Source: the human T2T-CHM13v2.0 reference genome, Homo sapiens
Strand: one strand, 5' to 3'
NCBI RefSeq assembly: GCF_009914755.1
Contig: NC_060934.1
Length of the DNA stretch: 64,000 bases
This document shows positions 25,051 to 44,200 of the stretch, piece after piece. The notes beneath the pieces were generated by a model. The model was not told where the DNA came from and did no database searches. It saw only the letters and a list, made by a program, of their open reading frames with translations. Within the stretch, counting starts at the first letter, position 1. Each line of letters begins with the position of its first letter. The translations under genes and the position numbers were made by a program.

Positions 25051-27084
25051 CACACTGGCCTTTTCAGAAGTTCAGGAATCCAATGTCAAGACTCAGGAAC
25101 TTGTCCAGATGAGGCCATCAAGATACAGGGACTCTCATATAATGGAGGATTTTCCTTAGAGAATTTCAGGATTTCAGGACTGAACAGAGACTGAGAAGGG
25201 TAAAGGGTGGTAGGATTGAGCGAGTCAGGCCAGAAACCTCTAGTTAGCTACCATGACAGAAGGGAAACATGCATTCAACTTATTTAATTAAACCAAGCTG
25301 TGTCATTTTCTTGGCATCCTTTGCTTCCTTTTTATAAGGAAACTTTGGGGAAGGTAGCATTCATGCTGTCCCTTCAGGGAAGCTGATATCTCACCCAGGA
25401 ACTGGGAGTGGATTTTCCTTTGGCCCCTTGATAGTGGATTTACCCACCAAATGCTTGTATTTTTGTAACCGTTTTTTAATTTCATTGTACGCACGCTAAA
25501 GAGGTGTTTGACTTTTTTCACATGTCTTTTATTAAAATGATTTCTGGAAAACATACTGAGCTGTGGATTTTGGAACCAATAGGAGTGGAATGCTGCCTGC
25601 CTCATAAAAACATAACCAAAAGCATGTTGAGCAAAATGGCAGGGCTTCCAAGGGCTGGCAAAGTACATCCTTGGAGAAGGTCCTGGGATCGTTCTATTGG
25701 ACAACACAGCATTGGTTAAGCAACAGCAAAACTGTGTATTTTCTCAAGCCCAAATGCCAGCAGACTCCTTGAAAATTCTTTTTTGTGTGCTTGCTGCCCC
25801 TCCCAAGAACCTAGCAGCAGAAACCCTAAAGCTTTGCAGTTTGTGCTTTGTACCTGCTACCTGGACTTGGAGAGCATTTGTTTCTCTATTTCCTTCCACG
25901 AGCATCTGTCCATGATCAATAGGTACAGCTAAATGCAACCGAGGAGCCGAGGTCAGGAGGACAGTGAAACCCCAGGGCTCTCCCACACTGCTGGCAGACA
26001 CAGCACCTCAGCTGAGGCCCAGGCATACTGCCGGGATCCCTGCTTGGCTGGGGTATGAGGTTCCTTGACTGGTTCTCTGGATCTAAGTCAAGTAATCTAA
26101 AACATGGCACCTCTTCTCACAGTGTGTGCCAGGGCCACGTCTGCCACGCAAGCTGACGGCAAGGTGACCACGTGGCATCTGTGTGAGACAGGGGAAACTT
26201 TGGAGTAGCAGGGCTAAACATCTGGAAAGGAGGGAAAGCCAGGTGGAATGGGGAGGGAGGTGGGAGGAGAACGGGACAGGAAGGAAAGATGGAAGCGGTC
26301 AACAGCGCGGCATGCTGCCAACAGGAGACAGGAAGAGAGAAAAGCGCCTCACTGGGCTTAGCAATTAGGAGGTTACTCAGATTTTGCCAGTAGTGGCCTC
26401 AGCCTCATGGTCAAAGCAGGAGTCAGAGCTGTCCCTGCTGCAGCTCACTCCTCTATGGTTCTAATGGCCCTTCTTCCTCTCCACCCGGCAGAGACCTCTC
26501 AGAAACGACACTTGTCTCCAGAACAGCCTGGTTTGTCAGACACGAGGAGCCCCTGAGGACAAGGGTGCTGGGGACCCAGGCTTGCCTTTCTAGGCGGCTG
26601 GGGTGGGTAGAGGGTGGGGAGGTGCTCTGGGTCCTCTGCCCACAGCAGGACTGTGGATGGAATGGTCAGTGAAGAGGTGAGGCTGGAATTTCAGGCAGGG
26701 CCCAGCAACGCACAGCCCACGCCATTTGGCAGCCTCCTGCCTTGGGATGTGGGGACCACCTATGCTCTGTTCCCTTCTCTCTCACATCCTTCTTCCACCA
26801 CCCTCTGGTCTTTCTGCCAGAGAGGAGCCCACCCTCCCCTGTCAATTTTGAAACTCAGTCCAGAAACTCAGGTAGAGAGCAGCACCCAGCCTGCGTGCTG
26901 CCCAAACACAGAGCCCTGCCCTGAGGACACATGAGGACACAGCCCAGCCAGAAGGAGGTGGAGCCGAGGCCTGCCAGCACCTGCAGGCCCCAACCATCCT
27001 GAGGCTCCAAGGGTCCTGGAAGACAAGCTGGAAGCTGAGGACATTTGAGTTCATCTTCTGAGGGCCTCAGAGAGGAAAATACTA

Positions 27085-27280
27085 ACAATCACTAAATTAA
27101 TAGTCTGACTACGCACCTGGCCATAAACTCTTGGTATGCATTACAAAGTTACACCTCACAATAGATAACTATCCTATTTTGCCAACTTGACAGATGAGGA
27201 AACTGAGAAACAAGAACAAAAGTGAGGTCTTCCAGCCAGTAAGTGGCTGGGTCTGTATTCTTAAGAATTTCACTCTATTG
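27085..27280 (-). mobile_element. MIR SINE
   Basis: 'acagatgaggaaactgag' core. Confidence 0.7.
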
Positions 27281-28139
27281 AAAACCATGGAGATAGGGGA
27301 GTCTTTGGAGTCAAACAGAAATGAATCTTTGCCTGGATTCCACAATTTACTGTATGTATTGTGACATATAGATATATATACACATACACATGCTATGCAT
27401 GCTCTATATAACATGAAATGTAAAGATATAGATGTATTCTAAAATGCATATAATTTCCACATGTAAATCACACATCTTAAATCTTTCCCACCTCTTCTTC
27501 ACCTGTACTTGTAGTGTGAGTCCTTGCAGGTGTAGTATGTGTATGTTGAAAACAGGGGAGAGCTCAAAGCCCTGCCTCCCCATCTATGCCACACTGCAAT
27601 GTGGGGAATGCATCTGCCACCCAAAGGACAGCTGGCAGGAGAAATGTCTGCAGGCCTCACATGCTGCTCAAATGCAGGTGACACAGACTGGCTTTGCTCC
27701 CAGCTTTCCCCCATCTCTCAGACAAAGGAGAAGCAGACAAGAGACATTAGACATGTTGATATAATCAAGTCACTTTTCAAGCAAGCCCAGCTTTCTTTTA
27801 CTTTGCCAGCACCAGCTTGTGTCTTAGAGGAGCTGACACCCAACAGCAAACTAAAATAAACTCCCTAAGTCAGCCATGTCGCTTCTCAGGACTATAGGCA
27901 GGTGGGAAGTCTGCCATGTCATCCCACTGGGCCATATCTGTTATCAGTGCCACACCTCCCGCCGTCCTGTGGGGAGCCCTGGCCTTGTGTGGCCACCTTC
28001 AAGCCTTCTTTCTTTACACATGGCCCTCCCCATGCTGCTGGCCCTCCCAGGTTCCTGTGGAGGTCTGTCTTCCTGGCGGCTTTGATGGTAGAGCTCTCTG
28101 CAAAGCTGCCTTGACAGTGATAACGCAGTGTCTCTAAAA

Positions 28140-29080
28140 ATGAAGAAAAAAATAAGATCGCTTAGATTAAAGGAGTCCACTGAATGCTCAGCTTTAAAGA
28201 AATATTTGATCAGTCTCATGACATCAAAATTGTAAAGTCTTATATGACAAAAGCAATAAAAAAGCAAATAATTGCAAACTGGACAAGAGATAAGAGTAGA
28301 GCATTCACAGAAAAGGGAATCCAGATTGACAACAAACATGAAAAGACACAATCTCCCTGCAAACCAAGGAAATGCAAATTATAACAGCAAGGCCAGACTG
28401 CTGTTCTGCCCATGAGACTTATAGAAATTAAAAAGAAATTGGCAGTGGCAAGGATACAATTGGTGAGAGTATCAATTGGCAAGACCTTTTGAAGACAAAT
28501 TTGGCATTATCAGTTAAATTTAGGTGCACATTTCTTAATTCTGACATTTTAAATTCTAGGTGGCCATTTTAGAGAAACACTACATACCTGCTCAAAGAGA
28601 CATGCATGAAATATCATTTAAGGTAGAATAAAAAGGAAGTGCTCCGAATGTTCACCAACATTTGCAACATTTGGCAGTTCACCAACAGAGATGGCTGCAG
28701 ATGGAATTGGGGTGTATTTGCACTGCAGTGCAGCCATTTAAGATGATTGGGTACCTCTCTATGTTCTGATCTGGAAATATCTCTATGGCATAGGTGAAAA
28801 AAGGAATTTGATGACAATGTGTGATACAATGCTAAATATGTTAAGATGTTTAACATAATATGTTATGTTAATATGTTAAATATGTTAACTACTAATTTTT
28901 ACGTGTAAAAATGTATATAAAAGGTCAGACATCAAACTGATAACCTTTGAAGATACAGCTACAATTAGAACGGGGGACAGTAGTAGCCAAGGGAACTTTT
29001 ACTTTATGTGTAATTTAGAATAGTTCAAAATTAATATGTCCCAAAATGGTATATTCATGTATTTATATTCAGTATTGCTT
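28140..29080 (+). mobile_element. Old L1 (L1ME-like) ORF2 3'/3'UTR fragment
   Basis: A-rich, 'gcattcacagaaaagggaatccagattgacaacaaacatgaaaag', 'ggaaatgcaaatt'. Confidence 0.55.
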
Positions 29081-29821
29081 TTTTAAATGATGGAAATCAG
29101 GAGAGGAAAAGTCAGAGACAGCAGGACAGGTCTGGGAGAGCTGCTCTGTTTGTTTCCAGGAGCAGGGCTAAGCCCGGCCCTCTGAAGGTGCTCCACGAGG
29201 TGGGGCTGCACACTCCAGCTCCCAGTCCATCTCAGGCATGCCGCAGTGTGTCCACGCTGCAGCTCCCCTGCTGCACCAGCAACAGAGGTGCAGGCCACCA
29301 GCATCATCTTCTGTGCCCCTTGAAAGAATGTAGCACCCCTGGAGCCAATCCTGGAGGGCATCCAGGGGCCTCCTTCCCTTTTACTGTGTCCCTAAAATGG
29401 ACATGCTGGTCTGTCTCCAGTGCCCCTCAACCTGCTAAGACCAGATTCCTGAAGGCTTGAAGTTCTTGAGAGGGAAGCACAGCATAGAACAAACAAGCCA
29501 AACAACACTGAAGACTGAGTGTCTGCAAGGAATTCCTTTCACCTGAGCCTCAGCTGGGGCACGCCTGTGGACTCCTGGTCACTTTCTGCCCTCCTATCAC
29601 CCAGGGAGAAGGTGAGTCCTTGGACACCTCCCTCCTGCACTGCATCTCCACCCCCACACAATCATTCCCTAGTCCTGTCCCCTGAGGCCACCCTTTGTGT
29701 CTTGCATCTGCCATCTTGGCAACAATTGACAGGAAGAAATTCCACTATCATTAGGAAATAAATGAGTGTATCCTGAACTGACAAGATCTGGTTGTAGGAC
29801 TGTGACATTGTGAAAAATATA

Positions 29822-30189
29822 CAGCCATGTACTGCCTGGGATGTTTCAGTCAATTATGGACTGCGTATAAAACAGTGGTCCCATAGGATTATTGCCCTAT
29901 ACAGGTATACATTTTCAATCTTTTATACAGTGTTTTTACTGTACCTTTTCTATGTTTAGATACACAAATATCACTGTGTTACAATTGCTGACAGTATTCA
30001 GTACAGTAGGATGCTGCACTGGTTTGTAGCCTAGGAGCAATAGGCCGTCACACATAGTGTAGGTGTGTAGTAGTCTATATCATCTAGGTTTGTGTAAGTA
30101 TACTCTGATATTCAAACAACAATGAAATTACCTGCACCAAAGAACATATTTGTCAGAAAGTAACCAATAGTTCAGCAACCATTTTATTG
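29822..30189 (+). mobile_element. Tigger3a-like TcMar DNA transposon inserted at TA in MER21
   Basis: 'ta|cagccatg...tttttactgtaccttttctatgtttagatacacaaata...ggtttgtagcctaggagcaatagg'. Confidence 0.85.
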
Positions 30190-30536
30190 TTTTCCCCTTT
30201 TCCTGGCTTACAACTTCTTAAGTCCTCGGAATCTTCCAAAACGTTGAGTGTCTTTTTATGCTAATGAGTAGGCTGATGTCTGGCAGCCCCCAGGTAGCTT
30301 CAGGATGGGATGCTGGTCAGCAGAAATACCCAGGCATGATTTGAGGGTTGGGAATTTCCCCTCCATCCCCCAACCTCCAGGGATGGGAGAAGGGCTGAAG
30401 TTAAGTTGATCACCAATGGCCAATGACCTAATCAAGCATGCCTACATAATGAAGATTCCATAAAAACCCAAAGGGCTGGATCTGCAGAGCTTCCAAACAT
30501 CCAAACCTGCGGAGTTTCCTGAAAGATGGTGTGCTC

Positions 30537-30929
30537 TAAGAAAAGAAAAGTAGCTCAGGGCAGTCTGAGGTACGTGAGGGATGCAAAATCCATCAGGCCC
30601 AGAGAGTCCGAGTGTGGGACTTCAGTCAAGCCCCACTTATGCTGGAGGACAATGGTTTAAAGTCATTTTGTGATACAAATAAACAGTGTATAGCTAATCA
30701 AATCTTACATTATTTTAATGTAAATTATTGGTAAAAAAACCTCAGGAACTTCTTTTTTTCCTTTAGAAATTCACTTGCAAGTACTGTTAATCAGAGTGTA
30801 CATTCAGGGCAACCTGAATTTATGATCCTAATTTCAATTCTGAAGCTTAGCCCCCCCACACCCCCCACCAATCCCCCAAATTCTCTGCTTATATTAATTT
30901 GGCCTCAGCTTCTTCCTTCTAGGTCGACA
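30537..30929 (+). mobile_element. ERV1 (MER4-group) 5' LTR, 'type A'
   Basis: Begins t(a)agaaaagaaaagtagctcagggcagtctgagg, ends ttctaggtcgaca, followed within 5 nt by a PBS. Confidence 0.8.
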
Positions 30930-30933
30930 TATG

Positions 30934-30951
30934 TGGTGTAGTTGGCAGGAT
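30934..30951 (+). promoter_or_regulatory. Retroviral primer-binding site, tRNA-Ser
   Basis: tggtgtagttggcaggat versus TGGCGTAGTCGGCAGGAT (complement of the tRNA-Ser 3' end). Both mismatches are CpG>TpG. Confidence 0.85.
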
Positions 30952-33847
30952 CCAGAGCTACTCCCCCCAGCCCTCCAGGGTTTCTCTCTGAAAGCCCTGC
31001 TTGGCACCAGCAGGAACCCATCGCATTCTCTCTGCCTTCAGAAGTTCCAACGGGTATTTCAGGTAAGTTCTATTGAACTTGTGAGTTCTCTTGAATTTGA
31101 AGCTTCTACTCTTTTGTTGAAAGTCTAGATGTTATTTGGATCAGTTTTCAAAACCTCTTTTTCCTTTAAGACTGAGGGCTTCAGTCTGTCTTTGGATAGG
31201 AGGTTCCAATAAAGAACTCTGCAGAGAACTGGCTTTTTTCCACCTCTACCTTAGGACAGAAGGTTTGGGTTTTTCTACCTTTGTCTCAGGATTGGGAATT
31301 CAGGTCATGGGAATGGCAATGTGGACCAGTGATCTCAGTTGACATAGTATGCTTTTTAAGATTGCAGAGGTTTTCTATTGTTTAAGATTTGGGCTTGGTT
31401 TTTCATTTGTGATCAAATCCTGTTAAAACACTAGCTGAATTTGTATATAACATTTATGGCACTTCATCTTATAAATACCTAGGAAAGTCGACCCACCCAA
31501 CCCAGGATGTTTTTAAGCAGCAGTAGCCAATATGGGGATCCTTTGAAATGTTTAAAATAATTCATTTGCATGCACAGTTGGAGAAAAAAGCTGGCTTTCA
31601 TACCAGACAAACTGAATGAGAGACCTACTTTATGTTCATTGTGGCTGAACTCTAATGATAAGAGATTTGATAACATTTCATGTAGAATTCTACGGTCAGA
31701 AGTTGGCTTAAATAAAAGCTGATATTTAAGGTATAATGTTTTTGAGTAAAAATAACAAAAAGGTTTTTTATCTTTTCCTTTTTTGGATCTTGTTTGTGGG
31801 AATTTTTTCAGTTAACTAAAACTCCTGTTTAAGAATGTTTGGCCTGTCTGTTTCTATCTTGCTGGCATAATTCTTGCTGAGAAAAATGTAAAAACTTAGT
31901 CTTTTAAAAAAAAAGACTCCTCAGTTTGGCTCCTCTAAGACTTATTGTTCTATTTCCTTCCACTTCTGGTTCTCTGTCTTTTTGCCGTTTTTGATACCAC
32001 ATGAAGAAACTAAGGGAGACTTCAAATGACTGTGAGGCCACTTGAAAACTACAGAAAAAGGCAGTCCCCCTTTGGAAAGTTTTCTGTTTTTCTCGTGGAG
32101 TACAAAGAATTGTGGGCAGGTTCCTATCAGGTCTAAAACTCTTCTGTCTTTTGCAATAAGTTACCTGATCTCTTTGGCTTTGGGGGGGGTCCCAGGAATT
32201 ACTTTGTACTGTAAGAGAGAACTTGACTTTTTGTGTGTGCAATGGCTGACAAGTCACTGGACAAAGCTGCAGTTTTGGAAGCAGCTGACAGTGGTTGTAG
32301 TGAATATTTGCTGCTCCAGGGGGCAACTTGTTTCTTCGTGTGTTCAGATGAAAAGGCAGATTTGAACACTTGGAGGCTGTGGGAACACTCCCCATCAAAC
32401 AGTAAGATTCCTGTGGAGAACAGGCTGCTCTAGAGAGGCCTGCTTGGCACTAGGTCACCCACCAGGCTCAGGGGAATGTCTGTACCAAGGAGTACTGCGG
32501 AAACATTGCACAGCCTGGTCCTGTGGTGCTTCCCTTTTTTGAGGGTCCTACAGCTCCATATAGAAGTGGGGTCCTTGATTTTTAAAGATCTAGATGCACT
32601 GCCTTCCAGTTGTGCTGCTTTTTACATTTCAAATATTAGGCCAGGGAAACTGCAAATACTTTCTTTGCCCTATTCATTAAAGGGATCCACTCTGAGTCAG
32701 TAACCTAATCAAGAAATAAACTAAGTTGAAAGACCCCCATCTAACTAGATTGCTGGCATTTAGCTGGCTAGTTTGACACTCTTTATAGAAGAAATGTATA
32801 TCTTTAAGGAAATCTCCATTTATAAGGGCACCTCCCTGCACAGGAGCCGTTAGAAACTTTTACAATAAGAAAGACATTGGCTTAACGTTTATACACCAAA
32901 TCGTACCTTTGTTTAGGATACTTTTCCTGACAATCTTGTTTTGAGTGGGCCTTTATCCATGTCCTTTTTGTTTCAGCAAATAATGGTGTTTAGATCTAAG
33001 TTCTGTGCCTTGGAGATGTAAACTTTCACCTGAGTCATCCCTTTGAAGGTGTAAATTTAGGGTTGCTTAAGTAACAACTGTCTAGAGCAATGGAACAGGT
33101 AATCAAGAGATTAATAGTTTAAAGAGGGAAGAAAATTATTTAAAAACTGGCAAATAAAAAACTGTATAAAGCTATACAGCCTGTTTTTATCCATGTGTCT
33201 GAATGTCTGTATGTTTATATGTGTCATGTTTATGTGATATTTCACTATCAAAATATATAAAATATCTATTTCATTGGCTTAAGGAAAAAGGAACTGCTTA
33301 AATAAAATATTTTAGCAGAAAAATAGAAATTAACTCAAATGCCTTTAGTTCACATGACTTGGAAAACATTAGTAAATAACTCGTTTAACATTATTGGTTT
33401 AATGAAAACAGCTGTGTCTTCTGATCAGCAAAATAAACATGTGTTTAACTTTAGAGCTCTTTTTCACATGATAACTGCCTAACATTATGAGTTACAGAAG
33501 TGATTAACAAAGAAATAACTCGAGATGATGCCTGACTTTGTTTAACGAACTAGTCAAGCATAATTGTTAAGAATGAATACATTAAATAAATATAAACGGA
33601 ATAAAAGTTTATAAACAAAATTTTCATAATTTCAAAAATCTTTTTCAGAAACTTAATCTTAAAGTCATATTATGTTAAATTAATAGGTAATTATAAAATA
33701 CTTGAGTCATTTATATGATATAGAAAAACTAAATATATTTAGATCTGTTAATAAGGAAAAGTTATGAAATAGTTTTCATCTACAAGTACTGGTATAAGAG
33801 TTCAAAATTTACTTTTTAGGTTTTTCACTGGAAATTAGGGTTACTAA

Positions 33848-34535
33848 TGTTACCGGTGGAAGGTATCCAAGTTACCAGTGGTGAATCCATACAGATCTGC
33901 AGCAATCTCAGTTTTTGCCTCCTCAGAAGAAATAATTCAACTAAGGGGCATATAGCAGAAAGAGACTGAGGCAAGTTTCAGAGCAGGAGTGGAAGATTAT
34001 TTAGACAGGCGTTAGAACAGGAGAGAAAAGAAGGTTCACTTGGAAGAGACCCAAGTGGGCACCAAAGGTCAAGAGTGGTGTTTAACCTTGACTCTAAGAC
34101 TTTATAGGCTGGCCTCTTTGCCATGATCCTTCCCTTAGGGGGAGCTGCCCACATACGCAGTGCCCTCCTTACCCTTGGGAAGTGAGCATGCGCAGTGTGT
34201 TCAGGAAGTTGTATGCATTCCCATCTGAGACTTTCCTCCCTTTTCCAGTGGTGTGGCCCCAGAAGGTCATACTTCACCATTTTGTCTCTTAACGTAGATG
34301 TCCAGGAATTTGCTTCTCCCTGGCGCCTGCATTCAGTTAAATAACATTTTAGTGAAACAGACTTGACCATCAGGAAATGGCCTCTCTCTGGTGCTTTTTT
34401 ATCACTTTTGTTTTATTTATTTTATTTATCACTTTTAGAGAGACAATGTGATAATTGCCAAACCAGCACCTAATGTTCCTAGTGGGTGGGGAGCCCTTTC
34501 CTGCCCCACTCATGCCTGTCTAACTACCTGCAGCA
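33848..34535 (-). mobile_element. MER50-like solo LTR
   Basis: tgttaccggtggaagg...tgtctaactacctgcagca with perfect 4-bp TSD ctaa (33844-33847, 34536-34539). Confidence 0.85.
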
Positions 34536-36374
34536 CTAAGAGTCAATGTTATAGCTAATATGTATAATTAAAACTACTTGCTATAGGAAAAACCTCTATT
34601 ATAGAGCATATAAAGGAAGTAAGATGCAAAGAAAGTTGAAAAGAGAAAGTGATTTTTTTCTTTTACATGACTGAGGACTTTGTGGTCAAAACAATAAAGA
34701 AGAGAGAAAATCACATTTTTATAGAATCCCAATGCAAAAAGAGAAAGTATAAGACAAAACTGGAGGTTTAAGTAAGTTGTAGGTTTGTGAAAGATGAATC
34801 TTGCGAAAAGAATTTTGTGTGTGAGCAAGTTGGCTAAAATTATACGAGAATTATTTCAAGTTTTTCTAAAGATTGAGCATTAATATGAAAAGCACACTAA
34901 TGCAAGGCCAGAGTCCTGGCTCCTATGTTTGAACAATAGGGTTTTCCCTATAATTTTAACAGAAAATTATAAAAGATTATAAGAGGTTTATGGAAAGCTT
35001 ATCTTGCATGGTCAAAACTGATTCAGACTGGATGGATTTATTTATAAGTCTTTATTAAACTTAGCTTTAGCATTAATAATATACTGACACAAATGTAGAA
35101 TATGCTTTCCTCTTTTGAACAAGATTTTAATGTAGTATTAATAAGGATAGTAAAAGGCTTTTGTTCAACTTTTGAGTAAACTGCAAAAAAAGATCTTTAT
35201 TAGGTCTTTTGATTATTTAGATAACTGAGTCTTCTCTCTCAAAGAGTAAAGGTTGTTTGAAATTTTTGAATTATTGCTTTGGTTAAATGAATGACTATTA
35301 TTTACAGTGAACTGTGATCCTAATTTGATCAAGTGTTTTAAACCTTTAATATTTGATATACTACCCAAAGTCAAATTTCAGTTTCTAAAATTAAATCTTT
35401 TCCAAAAGTAACCTCTAGAAATCTAAGAAAGATATATTTAGCTTATTTGGTATGTTAAAATCATATGGGAAGCATTGTCAAATCTCAAATAAATAATGGA
35501 GTTTAATTTTTTAGTCATATTTTTCTGAATATGTTATTATTTTGATATATCATGATATATGTTGTCAAGCATAATTATGATTTATCCTTGGTAAAAATGG
35601 GGAAACGGGAGAGAAAAATTGCATTTCAGAAGACAAGTACAGTATGCCTGTTATCAGATTCTAGTCTTGCCCATTGTTTTTGAGTTTTTATTATTTTCCT
35701 ACAATTTGGACTAAATCCTGAATTCTTTCTTGGCTGCAAGTCTTCAAACTAATGCTTTTGAACTTTTCTCTCATTTTTCTCACTTGGAATCACTAGAATT
35801 TAAAACTGCTTTTCTTGAAGCCCTGCAAACTAAAGTTAGACAACTTGATATAAACTTCAGGAGGAGTCAGCACAGCAACTCACATGTACACAGCCTTTGT
35901 GCCTGCTGATGTATGGGCTACTCAGGAAGTTCACATGAACACGTAATTCAAACTATAATCCAGGAAAATCTGTAAGATTACCACTACAATCTGAAGATAC
36001 TTCTGAGACTCTAGAAAAACTAGTTTATTATGGACTATTCCAGACATTAAGAAAAACCTTTGTTTTTCTTTGTTTCCATAGAAATGCCTCTTATTAAAGA
36101 CCAGCTTGCCTGCATCAGCTGTAGAAGCCCAGCCCCTCTGTAGTGCCACCTCCTAGAATGGACACAGCTGTTTGACCAAATGCTTCTACTCTTAGGACTA
36201 AGAGACTGATTCAAGAAGATATGGGACAACATATTTATTTATTTTTCTTTTCTGCTTATCCCAATTTGTTTTTTCCCCTTCTTTGCCTTCTTTTCCTCTA
36301 ACCCAAATCTCTCCATAATCACTGATTCAGCTGTTGATAATGTGAAATTCTAGGGAAGTTCCAAACAGGAGGAT

Positions 36375-36860
36375 TGAAGGAGCGCAGGGAACTTGGCCCC
36401 AAAATATGGCTCCCTGGTATGAGTATTTTCAATTAAAGTCCCTCAAGATCAACAGAAGCTGGAAGAGTCCTCTCCCTTATCTACATGAAGACCCTGCAGA
36501 CCCACCAAAGAGAACAATTACTTTTCCTTCTCCTCCCTCTTATCTCATTATCTATTGCAGAAAAGAAAACCAACACGTGACCACACCTGAACAGACGCTT
36601 TCAAAAAAATAATCCATTTCTCCAGCTTATTAAATTTTCAAAGAGAACCATTTACGAATAACTCTCTGTTTCTTGACCCATTCATTCTCCTTAATAATAA
36701 TTTATTGCCCCTCAACAGAATCACCTACATTCCGCCTTCCACCCTCCTCTCTGAAAAAACGCTGTATAAGTATCTGGACCTCATGGGATATTGGGTAATC
36801 ACCTTATTTTTCCCGTGTACACGTTAATAAATTTGTATGCATTTCTCTTATTAATCTGCA
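36375..36860 (+). mobile_element. ERV1 LTR 'type B' (MER34-like), truncated in U5
   Basis: Polypurine tract then tgaagg...ccccaaaatatggc, TATA-like gtataag, ttaataaatttgtatgc...ttaatctgc. No visible similarity to LTR type A. Confidence 0.75.
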
Positions 36861-36938
36861 TTGTACACTTAAAAAGTATTAAAAGAGTGAAATTTATGTT
36901 ATGAATATTTTATCACAATAAAACAATATTTTAAAAAA
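36861..36938 (+). mobile_element. L1MB-like 3' terminal fragment
   Basis: 'ttgtacacttaaaaag...aaatttatgttatgaatattttatcacaataaaa'. Confidence 0.65.
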
Positions 36939-37044
36939 CTGACAAAAATTCTTTTTAATTTCTTTCAAGTGAGGAATTACCAACTACTTAACAGGGTGCT
37001 TAGAATGGGGGATTTTACCAGATAAATGGCATGCTTTTTACAAT

Positions 37045-37130
37045 TAACAATTGCTGTTATTTACTGAGTATCCACTTTCTCTGCCAGCTCCTGCGTTAAG
37101 CACTTTACATATACTAATTCAAATCCTTAA
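37045..37130 (-). mobile_element. MIR fragment
   Basis: 'tatttactgagtatccact...tgccagctcctgcgttaagcactttacatatactaattcaaatcct'. Confidence 0.65.
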
Positions 37131-37289
37131 AAAAGAAAATAAAGAAGAGAAAAGGAAAGAAAAATAAGAACATGTAAGGCTATAAGGTGCCTCATCTTTG
37201 CCAAATTCTACAGACTGGCCAGGAGACTGCAGGCCACTGCAGCTTCCTAAGGCCACTCAGGACAAGGCCAGTCCGCAATTTGTTTCACT

Positions 37290-38560
37290 GTGAGACGGCT
37301 GCGCGGTCAGAGCCCAGACACGGTCATCAGACTCCCGGACTTGGATTCAGCTCCACATGGTGTCACCCTGGGTAAAGGATGTACATCTCTGCGTGCCTGG
37401 GTTTGTATGGATGGCAGCATGGATGCTCAGGCAACTGACCCGTCAGGACTGCAGCAAATGAACAGAAGCTGGGGGAGAGCGCGGGCTGGTGCTGTACGGA
37501 GCTCTGGCGCAGAAGGCGCTCACCAGGGGTGCCCAGAGCCGGGGTCTGTGCGCCGCGGGTTGGATCCGGGTCACAGGCTCTGGGTGGACAGAGTGAGAAG
37601 ACAAAATGAGGATGTACTCCTCAGATGCTCACGAAAGGCCTCCTTCCCCTTCTTTGGGAACGACCCCCCCCCACCCCCTCCCCCCAACAGGCAGTCCCAG
37701 GCCGCGCCAGGACTCGGCCGCAGGCAACTCGGAGGAGCGGGAGCCCAGGGGCCTCAGGAGGGCCTCGGGAGTGGGGAGGTGAAGGGGGCGTCGGGAGGGC
37801 CGCGGGTGGGAGGCGGGATAGGGAGGCGGGGAGACTCGGAGCGGGGTTGGGGAGGCGAAGAATGGAGGTGGGGAGGTGGGGAGGGGGCTTCGGGAGGGCC
37901 GCGGGTGGGAGGGGGATGGGGAAGCGAGAAGGGGGGGCGGGGAGGGGGGCCTCGGGAGGACCGCGGGTGGGAGGTGGGTGGGGAGGGGGGCCTGGGGAAG
38001 GATGGAGCCCGCTGAAGGCAGGCGATGACGCAGGCCCAGTGTACTTCTCCTGGGGGCTCCTTTCTAGGCCCACGGAAGCTCCGTGTTGGTTTCTTTGTAC
38101 CCATATCACACTCACTGTATTTCTTCTTTCCTTTCCTCTCCCAGCAGCTGTAAGCGCCCTACAGTTTGCATGGGAAGGCAACAGGGACTTCCCTTTTGCA
38201 CTGTCTGCGGGTACCGCTGTTCCAGCCCTGAGAGGACGAGGGGACGCTGCGCTGTGGGGAAAGTCCGGGTGGCAGGAGGTGGCGGGGCTCCTGGAGGAGG
38301 TGCTGGGATGCGCTGCTGTGGCTGCAGAGAAAGGTCCCGAGGACGCAACCCGTCCCTTCCCCCGAACTGCGAAGGAGCCCCGCGGGGAGGACGGGCAGGG
38401 TCTCCCGGAGGGAGGAACAGGGGAGCCTGGAGTCTCAGGGTTGCGGGGAGCAGAGGCGTTCTGGGTGGTGAACGTCCCCAGCCTGCCCTCCCTGCTCACT
38501 GCGAGGTCGCGCACCGGCTCTGCTCCAGGCCTTCCCTCAGCCCTGGCCTCCAGGCAGTTT
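37290..38560. promoter_or_regulatory. CpG island
   Basis: High GC and dense CpG compared with the CpG-depleted flanks. Confidence 0.8.
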
Positions 38561-38787
38561 CCATTTTTGCCAGGTGGATTCTGTACGGCTTCATTTATTC
38601 AGAATCTGGATCAACAAATGAACACTCAGAGAGGAAAAGGGTGTTTGGAGGGGTGGAGAGGTTTCCAAGCAGGTGCCCACCTGAGGGCCCCCTGAAAGGG
38701 GACTTAAAGCCGAGTTTCCAGCTGGGCCACCCTTTTTTTTTCTTTCTTTCTTTCAGAAATATAAACAAAGAGCTTGAATTATTTTGA
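37606..38787 (+). CDS. Candidate spliced orphan ORF (exons 37606-37778, 38145-38333, 38757-38787; 130 aa); may instead be a lncRNA
   Basis: aaaATGa start. Donor AG/GTGAAG. Strong acceptors at 38144 (ctcac branch point plus pyrimidine tract) and 38756. Both junctions are phase-2 compatible. No recognisable domain. Confidence 0.35.
37748..38000 (+). repeat. G-rich degenerate minisatellite (core ggggcytcgggagggccgcgggtgggagg, 3-4 copies)
   Basis: Core recurs near 37785, 37884 and 37946. Many GGG runs give G-quadruplex potential. Confidence 0.85.
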
Positions 38788-39924
38788 AATAACTGTTGGT
38801 AGCTGGACTGTGTTCTCTTGACCGCAACATTGCTCTGGGACTGAATCGCGTGGGTCTCTGCTCTTCCTAAGTGTTACATAAGAATAGCGAACCCATGAGG
38901 TCAGCTTCTAAACCAGTTTCTTCCCATAACCTCCTGGACCAAGTCCCAAGCAAGGCCCAGAGGAGCTCAAGGACCCACTCTCCCCGGGACACTCCTCACT
39001 CTCTAGTTGGAAGGAGGAAATGAATGTCCCCCAGTAATTGAAGGCTGCTCATGTTTGTGTAGAAAAGCCAAGCACAGGCCCATATTCTAGAGGGTTGCTT
39101 GCGGCAGGCGGAAGGCCATCGAAGGCAAAACGAAACAAATGAAAAGGCATCTTTTGAAGCTAATGGAACAGATCAGGTGGTCAAAAATGGATAAACAATG
39201 GCATTTGGAGCAAAACTTTCAGCTTCTTCGTTTTAGTTCGACAGCCCCAGGAGGGCATGGAAGCTTCTCGCCCTCCTCATATGTCTTGCCCCAGGCATCT
39301 CTGTGTCTCTCTCCTCTGTAACATCCTTTATAGTAAATGTAAGTAGGCCTTTCCCTGAGCTCTGTGAGCTGCTCTAGCGAATTAATCAAGTGTTAGGAGG
39401 CGTCCTGGGAACATTGATTCGTGGGAACGCCAGTGGGTCAGAAGCACAGGTAAGACCACCTTGCCATTGGCATTGGAAGTGGAGGGCAGGCTTGGGACAT
39501 GAGGCTTGGGCTTGTGGGGTGTGAGGCCACCTCCAGGTAGAAGGTGTCGATGTTGGAATTGTCCGATGTAGAACTGCCTTCTTGCTTGTGGTGGGGAGAA
39601 AACCCACACATTTGGTCACAGAAGTCTTCTGTGTTGATTGTTGTTGAGTGAGAGAAAAAAAGTACTTTGGTTTGTTCTGATATTTTCAGAAAGGCTGTAA
39701 TCAGTTCCTGGGCAATGCGTCATAATACCTCCGCCTCAGTACACTCCCCATCCTGAGGGGCGGCGCTTGCCATTTCTGAAAGGATGCCTCTGTGGGGCCT
39801 GGGAGCAAGGCAAGGCTGTGTCATTTCAGTCCTCTCAGCCCAGTCCCCACCAGGACCTGCCAGCCTGGAGTGAAAATGCATCTTATTGTCCTTCTGTCGC
39901 CTTCCAGAGACAGACTCCTAACCA

Positions 39925-40690
39925 GAACGCACATGGCACACATGCATACACACACATTACACACACATGCCCCACATACATACACACAGGCCCCACATGC
40001 ATACACACGCACCACACATTCATATGCACACAGCACACATGTAGTCACACATGCCACACATGCATACACACACACCACCCATCCCACCCACATCACATAT
40101 GATATACACAAGACACACCACACCGCACCGCACCATAGTCACACATGCTAAACATACCACATCATCCACAAATGCACCTACACATGCCACACATCATGCC
40201 ACACCATGTATGCTACTGCATGTTACACCACCCACACACACCAGACACACTACACACATCACACACACACACCAGACATATTACAACATCCACACAAATA
40301 TCCCACACATACGACACAATACACACACGCTTGCCACACACACCACAACACACATGCACACGATACCATGTATGCTATACACAAGTGCATGATATACCAC
40401 CTAGACACACACTTGCCACTCATACCACACTGGGCACACCATGCACACATCACAGGCACACACACTGCCTACACGAATTCCACATTATACTTCCAGATAC
40501 CACAGAAAACAGCATCCAAATCACACAAACACACAAACTGTGCACATAGACACATATACCACAAACATACCACACATCCACACACACTGCATACACACAC
40601 CACATACAGAGACACAAGCCACAGGCACACCACAAAGTACACATTCCTACACCCAGCTCCTACCATCAACACCACAAACACGTTTTCAAA
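39925..40690 (+). repeat. CA-rich low-complexity/degenerate (CA)n tract
   Basis: ~750 bp of cacac/catac/cacat variants. Confidence 0.92.
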
Positions 40691-41229
40691 TGCTCATTCC
40701 ACATACTTATGAAAACAAAAGCTGTCATAAACAGCACAGTTCAAACCTGGGTCAATTAAAAGAAGAACAAAACAGTTGTAAAAGAAACACAGTATTCCAA
40801 CGTGTTCACCTCCTCTCCTCCCACATAATAGTCGTTTCTATTGTCATGTGCTTCACTCATCATTTTCTGTCCCTGAATAGGATCTCTGTGACATAGACAA
40901 AGCCACACTGAACTCATTTCCTCCAGAAAAGGCTGAATCCAAACTTCTCCCTGGCCACCTCTCCAGCTCTGGGGTATCCCCATCTGATATGAGAAGATAG
41001 GAGGAGGGAGGGAAGTAAAGATCTTTCTCTTCCAAAACTGTTTCATGGGAACCATTTTATTTTTTATAATTATAGCAAAATGTAAGTTTAAGATTTTTTG
41101 TGTGTTGTATTTGGGTTTGTAAAACTGAAAAGTAATCACTGGAAAATATATCCTTTATCCAATATCCAAATATTTCCAAATATATCCAACATCCAATATC
41201 CAATATATTTGGAAATATACCCAAATATA

Positions 41230-44200
41230 TTCAATAGAAATTGGATAAATAACTTGCCAAATGCTGAACAAACGAAAGAGGAAAATATTACTGATCAACC
41301 CACTGAAAGAAAGGAAGATAAAATCAGAAATACTGGAAATGTGATAAATGTAAAAGATAAAATAAGACTATTACTGAATGTATTGGTTATCAGAATACAT
41401 CCAAAAATAAGTGGACTAAACTTCCCTATCCAAAGGCTAAGTACCTAGAGTGCTTCAAACAGCAAAACCTGATCCATCTAAAGTAAAATGAAGCATAGAG
41501 GTTGATACTTTGACACTTAGGAGTTAGGCGAGGATCTAGCAGATAAATTCAGATATAGACAAAGCAAGGGAGGGAATATTTATGTCAAATAGAGAAAGAA
41601 AGCCTAAAAATAGTCAATGAGGCAAAAATGATCATATTATTAATAAAATATACAATCCACAATGAAGACATTGAAGTCATGAACATTTGCATTTCAAATA
41701 CTAGTAGAGGAAATAATGTGAAAATATAAAACATAAAAATTTGATAAAATTGTTTGGTACTGAGAAGCTCTAACACATTGTACAGAATTTTGTGGATTAA
41801 CAAGATAAAAAAGGACATACAAAGCGTGAATAATGTAATTAACAAACTTGGCATAGTACCTACATAGAAAACATTGTAAGCCACAAAGAGACAAAGTAAT
41901 GTATTAACTCAGTATTTATAAATATTGATAATGAATTAGGCCTAACAAAGTCTATTCTAAATAAGGTAGAAATTCTACAAGCCTTTTTCTCTTAGTACAA
42001 GTAGTAAATAATGACAAAATGATTATGAATTTTAACCACACAGAACTGTAAAACTACTTTTTTTGATCAAAGGACTCCAATCCCAAGGAGGGAAAGCTTT
42101 TTTCAAATGCAAATTACTTCCTTCCCACCTTCCTTTGGATCCCTTATAAGTAATCCAGGTCATAGATGATTTTTATCAGACTTTGAGGGAAATAATTCAG
42201 TATGATGCTATTTTAAAGTTCCCAAAGCATAGAAAGTTTAGAAATTGTTTGAAACTGATTATATAAGACTAGCATCACATTTAAGCCCAAACTCAACAAA
42301 GATAACAATGAAAAGCATCTATAGAACAATTGCACTTAAGAGTATAGATATAACACTTCCCTATAAAATATTTTTACGTTAAATCCAGGAATAAATTCAA
42401 AGAATAATATACCACAAACTACCCAGCTTTATTCCTAGGAATATGGAAATAATTTATTAGCATGACATATATTAATATAATTTATAACAATAATTTGTTA
42501 AAGGAGAAAATCCAAGTAATTATCACACTAATTACTTCAGTGGCAGATCATACAATTCAACAACTGCACCTACGTGTGTTTTCCTCACATCTTGGAAGGT
42601 ATTTGTCAGAAGAGCTCAGCCAGCATTATACTGAGTGGTGAAGCACAGGAGAGATCCACGGTAAGGGTAGGAATAAAATGAGGATGTCCACTCTTGCTCA
42701 GCGTGATGTCTCAGCATTGCCGTACAGCCATATTCTAGCAACTCCAAGGAGGAAAGAGAGATATGTTAATTATGCAAATACTGGAAAGGAAGAAATAAAA
42801 TGTTTGCTGTATTTAGATAACAAGACTATTCTAATTCTCTGCAAAGTAATCCATAAATATAGCAAAGTGTCAATTAACATCGCAACAGCATGCATTCTAA
42901 AAGTCATCTGGAAAAATGACTGAACTAGCAATACAAATGCTGATAACAGAAGAGAGGCACCGAGGGGCTTCCCCGGCAGGTTTTGCACTCTCACAATGCC
43001 AGGATGCCTTCCGCTGTGCGGGGCCAACAAGAGCACATACACATGTAAAGGTGTCTCTTTAAATCTCCAGGAAAAGGACAGATTAGTGGGGAATGCGTTG
43101 TGACAACCTACTAACCATCTTAGGGGAAAATAGTGTTACAGTCCTACCTCATACCTCACACCAAAATGAATTCCAGATGGGCTAAATATTTTTAATATTT
43201 AAAAAAAATCATAAGGGCAGTAAAAGAAAACATTTAGTGAAAATTGTATGAATATCTGGGTGTGAAAGTGCTTTCTAAGCAGGCAACCAAAATCTGAAGT
43301 AATATAAGGAAAAGACTAATAGATGTTAATACATAAAAACTTAAAATGTGCTCTGAAATAAAATAAAAACCTGCCATGTACAAAATTAAGAGATAAGGAA
43401 AACTGGGGGGAATAGCGAGCAGGAAGGGAATTGCCAAATACATATAAAAGAATTAAAATTGCTATTACCTAAAAAGATCTTATAAAACTGTTAGGAAAAG
43501 GCAAACACACCAACTTTTAGAAGCAGAAAGAGAATACAAACAGGCAATTCAAATAAAACGAAATGCAAATGACCAATAAATTTGTAAAAGCCCCAGTGAG
43601 GTATAATTTATAGCCCCAAACCAGCCTAGATTGAGAATGTTAAATGTGCAAAAAGATTATGGACACCCTTGCCCATAAACTGCTGTTGGGGATAGAGTCG
43701 CAGCCAACCTCCAGGACAACAGGCAGGAATTGGAAGCAAACACTCCCTCAACTCCACCGTAGGCACTGCAGCCTCAGAACTGGTTCTAAAGAAAGAGTTC
43801 CAGGGTGCATAGCTATGCGATCAGGCAGTCCTCACAGTGCTTTCATTTTTAACAAAAAAAAAAAAAGAAATGAAAAATTTTAAATGACCATCAATATAGG
43901 TTTAAAGAAAACTCATAACCCTGTTCTATAAAATATTATCCAAAAATTTACATATGACACAAATCCATGTTTATGAACATAGAAATCTATCCATATTGAC
44001 TACTAAATAAGGAAATCTGGAAAAAGAACAGTATGGATAATATAATTAAAAAGTAGGGTGTGTGGGTCTGTCTGTCTAGAATAAAGCATGACCCCCAATA
44101 TTACCAATGATTAAATTATGGCCCGACCCTATTGACATAAGGCGGTACTCATTCATGCAATGTCAATTCAGAAGGCAAGTTGGATACAGAATGTAATCTC

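What the first reader, a model, noticed from the sequence alone, without database searches (positions are those of the whole stretch)
30537..39243. Provirus footprint enclosing foreign, apparently older genomic DNA (captured segment with a CpG island)
Seen: the MER21 LTR breaks at 30536 and resumes collinearly at 39244, with a 4-bp near-TSD (gctc/gccc). The block starts with LTR-A plus PBS-Ser and ends with 25 bp (39219-39243) matching the end of LTR-A (30905-30929) at 22/25. Both ends therefore look like one integration. Between them lie a polypurine tract, an unrelated MER34-like LTR-B, an L1MB-like tail, MIR fragments, a CpG island and unique sequence, while the rest of the 3' LTR-A is missing. 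Known: MIRs are generally much older than MER4-group ERV1s, so they should not have inserted into this provirus. Inference: at least 2.8 kb was imported from another locus. One route is recombination/gene conversion started between two related ERV internal regions and resolved non-homologously in the 3' LTR; read-through capture is an alternative. Either way a promoter would have been moved into a retroelement.
Basis: partly seen in the sequence, partly recalled or inferred. Interest (0 to 1): 0.8.

Follow-up and report, generated by a model that had tools for sequence, protein, structure and literature searches.

The report
Host DNA copied into old provirus
An ancient retrovirus insertion on human chromosome 10 has lost almost all of its right-hand end and carries instead a 2.4-kb copy of ordinary host DNA from 465 kb away, and that copy now supplies the promoter and most exons of the non-coding RNA gene LINC02881.

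Summary
A MER21-like LTR is split at 30536/39244 with a 4-bp target-site duplication (GCTC/GCCC). The insert starts with a complete 393-bp LTR ("LTR-A") and a tRNA-Ser primer site. It ends with 25 bp of the LTR-A terminus (22/25 identical; 0 of 100 shuffles match).

The interior is a mosaic:
- A-type provirus interior up to about 35743, carrying a later solo LTR at 33848-34535.
- The 3' interior of a different ERV type plus its LTR ("LTR-B", 36371-36859). LTR-B is cut 25-31 nt after its AATAAA and lacks the ~78-bp U5 present in 8 of 8 relatives.
- Host DNA at 36860-39223.

The host block has exactly one paralogue in the genome, at chr10:44705696-44708354, inverted and 465 kb away. That locus keeps 172 more bases of the same truncated L1, so it is the source. 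The junctions show microhomology: about 3 bp (CTG) on the left and 4 bp (TCAG) on the right.

Mechanism is unresolved. I favour microhomology-mediated repair or template switching after integration (~0.55) over aberrant reverse transcription before integration (~0.27). It is a new example of known kinds of event and moderately interesting.

The parts
30195..30536 (+). Left half of the MER21-like LTR that was the integration target
   Evidence: 39 non-self genome matches at 75-81% identity; BLAST to five uninterrupted copies
30533..30536 (.). Left copy of the 4-bp target-site duplication (GCTC)
   Evidence: The same four bases of uninterrupted copies align to both halves
30537..30929 (+). Complete 5' LTR-A (TAAG...GACA; the family starts TGAG)
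   Evidence: 58 non-self matches; 10 of 13 copies start TGA at base 1
30934..30951 (+). Primer binding site complementary to tRNA-Ser(AGA) 3' end plus CCA, with two CpG-decay mismatches
30930..33847 (+). A-type proviral interior, 5' part (non-coding, AT-rich, degraded)
   Evidence: Collinear with other LTR-A proviruses
33848..34535 (+). Secondary solo LTR ('LTR-C') with 4-bp TSD CTAA (33844-33847 and 34536-34539)
   Evidence: About 30 genome copies at 76-82% identity with sharp ends. Other A-type proviruses run straight across the site with a 4-5 base overlap. TSD read
34536..35743 (+). A-type proviral interior, 3' part
35576..35743 (+). Block shared by A-type and B-type interiors; zone of the A-to-B switch
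   Evidence: 7 of 7 A-type copies match the window only here within their last 560-650 internal bases. B-type locus L022 matches from 35630 onward
35744..36370 (+). B-type interior 3' end, with a purine-rich tract (...aaacaggagga) next to LTR-B
   Evidence: Continuous with LTR-B in 4 other loci (C12:70.44 Mb, C4:62.17 Mb, C6:111.71 Mb, C23:61.48 Mb; L022)
36371..36859 (+). LTR-B, U3 and R only. AATAAA at 36826-36831. The family's last ~78 bp (U5) is missing
   Evidence: 8 of 8 other copies continue
36856..36862 (.). Left junction between LTR-B and the L1 tail, with about 3 bp of microhomology (CTG)
   Evidence: Alignments
36860..37213 (+). Imported host block, part 1: 3' tail of a truncated L1 (to ~36945) and its flank. 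62/300 mismatches to the donor
37214..39223 (+). Imported host block, part 2: CpG-rich region, LINC02881 promoter, exons 1 and 2, and the start of exon 3. 199/1849 mismatches to the donor. 465 bp of unique donor sequence is missing at 37213/37214
   Evidence: exon coordinates from the hub annotation
37748..37978 (+). G-rich 99-bp tandem repeat, 2.3 copies; 159 bp (37780-37938) is present only in the window copy
39220..39223 (.). Right junction: TCAG shared by the donor and LTR-A (4-bp microhomology)
   Evidence: alignment; LTR-A end printed
39219..39243 (+). Terminal 25 bp (21 beyond the microhomology) of the 3' LTR-A, ending ...GACA
39244..39247 (.). Right copy of the TSD (GCCC)
39244..39657 (+). 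Right half of the MER21-like LTR; also holds the 3' end of LINC02881 exon 3 (to 39493)
   Evidence: hub annotation

Best explanation
Shown:
- An ERV1-type provirus (LTR-A, tRNA-Ser primer site) integrated into a MER21-like LTR and made a 4-bp duplication.
- Its present interior is a three-part mosaic:
  - A-type sequence to about 35743.
  - The 3' interior plus U3-R of an unrelated B-type ERV, to 36859.
  - A 2.36-kb duplicate of host DNA whose parent still lies at chr10:44705696-44708400, 465 kb away and in the opposite orientation.
- Only the last 21-25 bp of the 3' LTR-A survive.

Inferred, favoured mechanism:
- After integration, the 3' part of the provirus suffered a break, gap or stalled fork. 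By then it already carried B-type sequence, for example from a nested B-type provirus that had collapsed by recombination across the shared 165-bp block.
- LTR-B U5, everything behind it and all but 21 bp of the 3' LTR-A were lost.
- The gap was bridged by copying the donor locus as DNA or as a nuclear transcript. Joins were made at short microhomologies (CTG on the left, TCAG on the right), and 465 bp of donor sequence was skipped.

Consequence: the copy brought a CpG-rich promoter region. Its transcript, LINC02881, now runs across the junction and ends in the MER21-like LTR.
For: Structure:
- define the parts.

Import and its direction:
- The block has a single paralogue in the genome.
- There is no other homology between window 26-44 kb and the 40 kb around the donor.
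- Both copies share the same junction between the L1 poly(A) end and its flank. The donor keeps 172 further bases of that L1 upstream (39 non-self L1 matches end there; alignment). The window copy starts mid-L1 against a truncated LTR-B.
- Paralogy stops within the 4 bases where the LTR-A terminus begins.

End-joining character of the junctions:
- 4-bp and about 3-bp microhomology, no poly(A), and no duplication around the insert.

DNA or nuclear-transcript template rather than mature RNA:
- Both LINC02881 introns and 735 bp upstream of its annotated start are inside the copy (hub annotation).
- The missing 465 bp has no GT-AG ends and is single-copy.

Precedent:
- Class 2 templated sequence insertions are donor-retaining patches at double-strand breaks with microhomology and microdeletion (PMC5110952, passages read).
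Against: - LTR-B stops 25-31 nt after its AATAAA, where an RNA 3' end is expected. For a random DNA break in a ~570-bp LTR this is roughly a 2% coincidence (my estimate, made after seeing the data).
- An A-to-B switch inside a shared block is what recombination between co-packaged retroviral RNAs produces.
- The favoured history needs several separate events: arrival of the B-type element, its collapse, then deletion plus patch.
- No orthologous locus could be examined, so nothing shows that the provirus ever had a full 3' LTR-A.
- Divergence from the donor is uneven: 62/300 left of the 465-bp gap against 199/1849 right of it. This is unexplained, so the event cannot be dated relative to integration.
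Confidence: 0.55

Rival explanations
1. The whole mosaic was made in one aberrant round of reverse transcription before integration (LTR-mediated capture).
- tRNA-Ser-primed DNA left U5 of an A-type RNA after about 21 nt.
- It jumped by TCAG microhomology onto a co-packaged host transcript and copied about 2.4 kb, skipping 465 nt.
- It jumped by CTG microhomology onto the 3' end (R) of a co-packaged B-type RNA.
- It crossed back into the A-type RNA in the shared block and finished through the 5' end.
- A normal R-mediated transfer then supplied U3 for the complete 5' LTR-A.
- Integrase used the intact U3 end and the 21-nt U5 end.
For: - LTR-B consists of U3-R only and ends where its poly(A) site is predicted.
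- The A/B crossover lies in the only block the two types share.
- Both host junctions have microhomology.
- An exact TG..CA-type terminus and a 4-bp TSD survive with a minimal U5 end.
- The host insert has the same sense as the provirus and as LINC02881.
- Tan et al. 2016 (PMC5131818, sections 5 and 6 read) describe retrocopies flanked by discontinuous LTR-element parts. They report microsimilarity at 25 of 29 junctions, multiple switches, and a requirement for 15-20 bp at each terminus. They list three human cases.
Against: - The insert is unspliced and includes the promoter and 735 bp upstream of the annotated start, unlike the intronless retrocopies that define the class.
- An unspliced intergenic nuclear transcript is an unlikely virion passenger.
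- Three RNAs and four or five switches are required, two or three of them non-homologous.
- The complete 5' LTR-A cannot come from the usual plus-strand transfer, because the right end lacks U3 of type A. It needs an unprecedented extra step. That pathway is my construction and is not documented.
Confidence: 0.27
2. Gene conversion or ectopic recombination started in the ERV interior against a B-type provirus at a third locus, since lost. That provirus lay next to a paralogue of the host block. The event resolved non-homologously in the 3' LTR-A.
For: - The A-to-B switch lies in a shared block.
- The right end is a non-homologous join.
Against: - LTR-B lacks U5 and abuts the middle of an L1 tail, so it is not an integration boundary.
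- The only paralogue of the host block has no ERV within 20 kb either side.
- No B-type copy is closer than 74% over its full length or 81% over part of it.
- No third copy of the host block exists.
Confidence: 0.08
3. The direction is reversed. The window holds the original DNA, and the 44.7-Mb copy was derived from it.
For: Paralogy alone does not give a direction. The window copy retains about 35-42 bp of L1 tail that the other copy has lost.
Against: - The other copy has 172 more bp of the same L1 upstream of the window's breakpoint.
- It also has 465 bp of unique sequence that the window lacks.
- The end of paralogy coincides to within 4 bp with the start of the LTR-A terminus.
- In the window the block sits inside a single TSD-bounded integration.
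Confidence: 0.04

Closest known systems
LTR-mediated retroposition / retroviral transduction of host sequence (Tan et al. 2016, PMC5131818; human example FAM8A1_r, cited there)
   Same: - Host-derived sequence replaces part of an LTR element.
- It lies between parts of that element inside one integration footprint.
- Microhomology at the switch points; no poly(A); no L1-type duplication.
- Both element termini are present.
- More than one foreign template can be involved.
   Different: - The insert here keeps its introns, its promoter and upstream repeats.
- The 3' LTR is reduced to 21-25 bp.
- The two ends belong to different LTR families except for that stub.
Class 2 templated sequence insertions: patch repair of double-strand breaks (Onozawa and Aplan 2016, PMC5110952)
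   Same: - A copy of a distant locus is inserted while the donor stays in place.
- No TSD and no poly(A) around the patch.
- Microhomology at the junctions, with loss of recipient sequence.
   Different: - At 2.36 kb, the patch here is probably much longer than those described. Sizes were not in the passages I read, so this rests on recall.
- The recipient is a provirus and the deletion removed most of an LTR.
- The copy founded an annotated lncRNA gene.
Replication-based template switching with microhomology (FoSTeS/MMBIR; recalled, no paper read)
   Same: - An intrachromosomal template a few hundred kb away.
- Inverted orientation.
- Microhomology at both joins.
- An internal skip of 465 bp.
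- Loss of recipient sequence.
   Different: Such events are known mainly from recent pathogenic or polymorphic rearrangements. An ancient fixed example inside a provirus cannot be told apart from patch repair by sequence alone.
Mosaic (recombinant) endogenous retroviruses and nested ERV insertions collapsed by recombination (general knowledge, recalled)
   Same: The interior switches from one ERV type to another inside a block of shared sequence.
   Different: Ordinary retroviral recombinants have two identical LTRs. Here the 5' LTR is type A and the only 3' U3-R is type B.

Membership tests
ERV1-type (class I) provirus integration | LTR with TG...CA ends, 4-bp target-site duplication, tRNA primer binding site 2-5 bases after the 5' LTR | tested here: met
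   - The family starts TGAG (10 of 13 copies); the window has TAAG.
- The LTR ends GACA.
- 4-bp TSD.
- tRNA-Ser primer site 4 bases after the LTR.
- That 4 bp is typical of class I ERVs is recalled.
ERV1-type (class I) provirus integration | Two matching LTRs | tested here: not met
   Only 25 bp of the 3' LTR-A remain. The only other 3' LTR sequence is an unrelated, truncated LTR-B.
LTR-mediated retroposition (Tan et al. 2016) | Host sequence flanked on both sides by discontinuous parts of an LTR element, replacing element sequence | tested here: met
   LTR-B U3-R lies on the left and the LTR-A terminus on the right, all inside one TSD.
LTR-mediated retroposition (Tan et al. 2016) | Microsimilarity at the switch points; no poly(A) tail; no L1-type TSD | tested here: met
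   TCAG (4 bp) and CTG (about 3 bp) at the junctions; no A-run at either junction.
LTR-mediated retroposition (Tan et al. 2016) | Insert is a retrocopy, that is, an intronless copy of a processed transcript | tested here: not met
   - Continuous homology to the donor runs across both LINC02881 introns and 735 bp upstream of exon 1 (hub annotation).
- The 465-bp gap lacks GT-AG ends.
LTR-mediated retroposition (Tan et al. 2016) | Both element termini (15-20 bp integrase sites) present | tested here: met
   Complete 5' LTR-A, and 21-25 bp of the 3' terminus ending CA next to the TSD.
Class 2 templated sequence insertion (Onozawa and Aplan 2016) | Insert templated from a distant region, with the donor retained | tested here: met
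   The donor is present at chr10:44705696-44708400.
Class 2 templated sequence insertion (Onozawa and Aplan 2016) | No TSD, poly(A) signal or poly(A) tail at the insert; microhomology or microdeletion at the junctions | tested here: met
   Recipient loss (LTR-B U5 and most of the 3' LTR-A) is inferred.
Class 2 templated sequence insertion (Onozawa and Aplan 2016) | Occurred at a break in pre-existing DNA, so the recipient was intact beforehand | not testable with these tools
   This needs orthologous loci from other species, and none are held here.
Segmental duplication (usual database criterion of at least 1 kb and at least 90% identity; recalled) | Identity of at least 90% over at least 1 kb | tested here: not met
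   86-88% identity by BLAST for 37213-39223 and 73% for 36890-37214. The mismatch rate without gaps is 10.8% and 20.7% respectively.
CpG island (recalled criteria: at least 200 bp, GC above 0.5, observed/expected above 0.6) | CpG observed/expected above 0.6 | tested here: inconclusive
   - 37250-38550 has GC 0.66 and o/e 0.54.
- The 200-bp bins at 37800 (0.97) and 38200 (0.70) pass; the others score 0.40-0.59.
Named repeat families (MER21, MER4 group, MER34, L1MB, MIR) | Match to the family's reference model | not testable with these tools
   - No repeat library is held, so I use neutral labels.
- L1 identity is supported by alignment to four other L1 3' ends.
- MIR is not supported by the one search possible.

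The most novel reading that the evidence does not exclude
The locus is the fossil of a single aberrant reverse-transcription product. It would have been built from a virion holding an A-type and a B-type ERV RNA plus an unspliced host transcript, and integrated using a full U3 end and only about 21 nt of U5. This would be a fourth-class human example of ERV-mediated transduction. It would be the first to carry an unspliced, promoter-containing host segment that then became a lncRNA gene. It would also show that a provirus can integrate with a 3' LTR reduced to the bare integrase site.
Probability: 0.27. Interest if true: 0.7.

Novelty: new member of a known kind. Interest (0 to 1): 0.45.

Why it matters
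- It gives a base-resolved origin for a RefSeq lncRNA gene. LINC02881's promoter, exons 1 and 2 and the first 466 bp of exon 3 are a duplicate of a locus 465 kb away. The rest of exon 3 is 21 bp of retroviral LTR plus a MER21-like LTR.
- It shows that a TSD-bounded provirus footprint can enclose older host DNA without the virus having carried it. This matters for dating elements by nesting order.
- If the reverse-transcription reading is right, it would be a rare case of retroviral transduction in the human germ line, with an unusual substrate.
- The two inverted copies 465 kb apart are also potential partners for gene conversion or inversion near CXCL12. That last point is speculation.

Tried and rejected
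- **MIR check.** A genome search with 36960-37215 returned only the window itself, the paralogue and one 33-bp match. The tool is not sensitive to old short repeats, so this neither confirms nor excludes MIR.
- **First primer-site pattern.** It wrongly included a base of the untemplated CCA. It therefore found only decayed ERV primer sites (9 hits, 2 in the control). The shortened pattern found the tRNA genes.
- **Is the 465 bp missing from the window copy a spliced-out intron or a transposon inserted in the donor?** It has no GT-AG or CT-AC ends and is single-copy in the genome. Both ideas are rejected.
- **Is the 25-mer the end of LTR-B?** Rejected. The LTR-B family ends ...CCCCTACA.
- **Are LTR-A and LTR-B related?** No significant similarity.
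- **Inversion with staggered breaks, which leaves inverted duplicates at its ends.** Rejected by logic. Both the provirus 5' part and the MER21-like right half still flank the copy, so nothing was inverted.
- **A surviving B-type donor provirus of the same age as the host copy.** None found. The best full-length identity is 74% and the best partial identity is 81%. Each search scored only 40 candidates.
- **Dating the import against integration.** Inconclusive. The two parts of the block differ two-fold in divergence, and the 3/25 mismatches in the LTR stub are too few to use.
- **Literature on LINC02881 / C10orf142.** 17 papers hold the names. In the listing of 15 (titles and abstract starts only), none concerns the gene's origin.
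Full report
**Setting**

The window is human T2T chr10:45136001-45200000, and the tools hold the whole assembly. No repeat library is available. I therefore use neutral labels (LTR-A, LTR-B, LTR-C, A-type and B-type interior) and test each element by its copies elsewhere in the genome.

**The integration footprint is real**

- *Target LTR.* The sequence left of 30536 belongs to a repeated LTR with 39 non-self matches at 75-81% identity.
- *Continuity across the insert.* I fetched five uninterrupted copies. In four of them the sequence right of 39243 continues exactly where the left part stops, and four bases are represented in both halves. L042 reads GGTGT-GCCC-AGGGAGGGC, where the window has ...GGTGTGCTC on the left and GCCCCAGGAGGGC... 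on the right. The fifth copy has a deletion there. This is a 4-bp target-site duplication.
- *5' LTR.* The insert begins with a 393-bp LTR. It has 58 non-self genome matches at 66-85% identity, and the family starts TGA at the base corresponding to 30537 in 10 of 13 other copies.
- *Primer site.* Four bases after the LTR lies TGGTGTAGTTGGCAGGAT. Its complement, with the two CpG transitions undone, occurs 11 times in the genome, 9 of them in the chr6 26-27 Mb region. I fetched two of these, and ARAGORN calls both tRNA-Ser(AGA).
- *3' stub.* The insert ends with a 25-mer that matches the LTR-A terminus at 22/25. These are the only two matches in the window at up to 3 mismatches, and 0 of 100 shuffles gave any.
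- *Nothing else of LTR-A.* No other part of LTR-A recurs in the window.

**The provirus interior**

- Windows 30930-33847 and 34536-35550 are collinear with other LTR-A-flanked proviruses.
- Between them sits a 688-bp solo LTR (33848-34535) with about 30 genomic copies at 76-82% identity and a CTAA duplication. Other A-type copies run straight across its site. It is a later nested insertion.
- The last 560-650 internal bases before the 3' LTR are shared among 7 of 7 A-type proviruses compared. The window follows them only for the first 140-170 bases (35576-35743).
- From there the window follows a different element type, represented by locus L022. The interior 3' end of that type is contiguous with LTR-B.
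- That arrangement recurs at four other loci.
- LTR-A and LTR-B are unrelated.
- The element is therefore an A/B mosaic, with the crossover in the only block the two types share.

**LTR-B is truncated at a telling place**

- In 8 of 8 other copies the LTR continues for about 78 bases beyond window 36859 and ends ...CCCCTACA.
- In the window it stops 25-31 nt after its AATAAA (36826-36831), just before the T/G-rich stretch that follows in the relatives.
- That is where the poly(A) site, and so the R/U5 border, is expected. The window therefore has U3-R without U5.

**The host block and its source**

- A genome search with 36300-39243 found one paralogue, at chr10:44705696-44708354 on the opposite strand, 465 kb proximal.
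- BLAST of window 26001-44000 against 40 kb centred on it gave five segments, all within 36890-39223. The donor neighbourhood therefore holds no LTR-A, no LTR-B, no ERV interior and no MER21-like LTR related to the window.
- *Right end.* Homology stops at 39223. The four bases TCAG are common to the donor (...CTTTCAG|CATAGTG...) and to LTR-A (...GGCCTCAG|CTTCTTCC...).
- *Left end.* The block begins inside the 3' tail of an L1. Alignment with four other L1 3' ends shows that the window starts at ...TTGTACACTTAAAAA... directly after LTR-B's ...AATCTGC, with about 3 bases (CTG) shared.
- *L1 continuity.* The donor carries the same L1 with the same poly(A)/flank junction and 172 more bases upstream, although it has since lost about 42 bases internally.
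- *Missing segment.* The donor has 465 bp of single-copy sequence that the window lacks at 37213/37214.
- *Direction.* These facts fix the direction. The 44.7-Mb locus, or its ancestor, is the source and the window holds the copy.

**What the copy contains**

By the hub's annotation, the copy holds the LINC02881 start (37595), exons 1 and 2, both introns, and the first 466 bp of exon 3. The exon then crosses the LTR-A stub and ends in the MER21-like LTR.

- The region 37250-38550 is GC-rich (0.66) with CpG observed/expected 0.54. Only two 200-bp bins exceed 0.6.
- A 99-bp G-rich tandem repeat is expanded by 159 bp in the window copy.
- The exon-2 splice sites are conserved in the donor. The exon-3 acceptor AG is not.

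**An unexplained feature**

- Mismatches to the donor are 62/300 (20.7%) left of the 465-bp gap and 199/1849 (10.8%) right of it. These sums are mine, from the bins.
- Non-CpG K2P distance is 0.225 on the left against 0.076-0.102 on the right.
- Later gene conversion between the inverted copies, confined to the long uninterrupted right part, would explain this. So would constraint on the right part. I could test neither.
- The step prevents dating the import against integration.

**Mechanism**

*What does not fit.*
- Read-through capture predicts a complete LTR-B followed by its own flank.
- Conversion from a B-type provirus adjacent to the host DNA predicts an ERV at the donor locus.
- Neither is seen.

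*First family of explanations: events after integration.*
- A break, gap or stalled fork in the 3' part of an already integrated and already mosaic provirus removed LTR-B U5 and nearly all of the 3' LTR-A.
- It was bridged by a copy of the donor joined at microhomologies.
- This matches class 2 templated sequence insertions (PMC5110952, passages read) and replication-based template switching (recalled).
- It fits the unspliced, promoter-containing nature of the insert.
- It treats the LTR-B break at the poly(A) site as chance, and it needs the A/B mosaic to have arisen separately.

*Second family: one aberrant reverse transcription before integration.*
- The model for this is LTR-mediated retroposition (PMC5131818, sections 5 and 6 read).
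- It accounts at once for U3-R of LTR-B ending at an RNA 3' end, the homologous A/B crossover, the two microhomology joins, the 465-nt skip and the minimal U5 stub next to an intact TSD.
- It requires an unspliced intergenic transcript in the particle.
- It also requires an undocumented way of building a complete 5' LTR-A.

I put the first family at about 0.55 and the second at about 0.27.

**Novelty and verdict**

- Searches for LINC02881 / C10orf142 found 17 papers. In the 15 listed by title and abstract start, none concerns the gene's origin.
- The event types are known, and this is a new, cleanly resolved example.
- The proposed routes are only partly right. The size of the import and the status of LTR-B need correction.
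- Orthologous loci in other primates would decide between the two mechanisms. None are available here.

Noticed in passing
window 33848-34535: A solo LTR of a third family is nested in the provirus interior, with a 4-bp CTAA duplication. It has about 30 genomic copies at 76-82% identity.
   Followed up: partly
window 36896-37213 versus 37214-39223: There is a two-fold step in divergence from the donor (62/300 against 199/1849 mismatches), located exactly at the 465-bp gap. Within the right part some 60-bp bins have only 1-3 mismatches (for example 38784-38903). This may be patchy gene conversion between the inverted copies, or constraint.
   Followed up: partly
window 37748-37978: A G-rich 99-bp tandem repeat lies just after LINC02881 exon 1. 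159 bp (37780-37938) is present only in the window copy, so the array expanded here or contracted in the donor. The exon-1 splice donor lies at its edge.
   Followed up: partly
window 38755-38757 and the donor counterpart (L025): The acceptor AG of LINC02881 exon 3 is absent from the donor copy, which has an A-run there. The exon-2 splice sites are conserved in both copies.
   Followed up: no
window 39930-40700: A long, strongly strand-skewed C/A-rich stretch (GC skew about -0.6, AT skew +0.44) made of degenerate CACA/CATA-type repeats lies just downstream of the MER21-like LTR.
   Followed up: no
G000 chr10:44705696-44708354 and window 36860-39223: The two inverted copies lie 465 kb apart on the same chromosome arm near CXCL12. 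In principle they could mediate an inversion or exchange sequence. Nothing here tests that.
   Followed up: no
G000, 15 loci listed (for example C1:244151705, C3:114391190, C18:43675845): The same decayed tRNA-Ser primer-site 15-mer (both CpGs mutated) recurs at 15 loci including the window, against 2 hits in the reversed-pattern control. These are presumably other members of this ERV group.
   Followed up: no
L025 around 44705650 (donor right flank): An Alu begins about 46 bp beyond the end of paralogy in the donor. The window copy contains no Alu.
   Followed up: no
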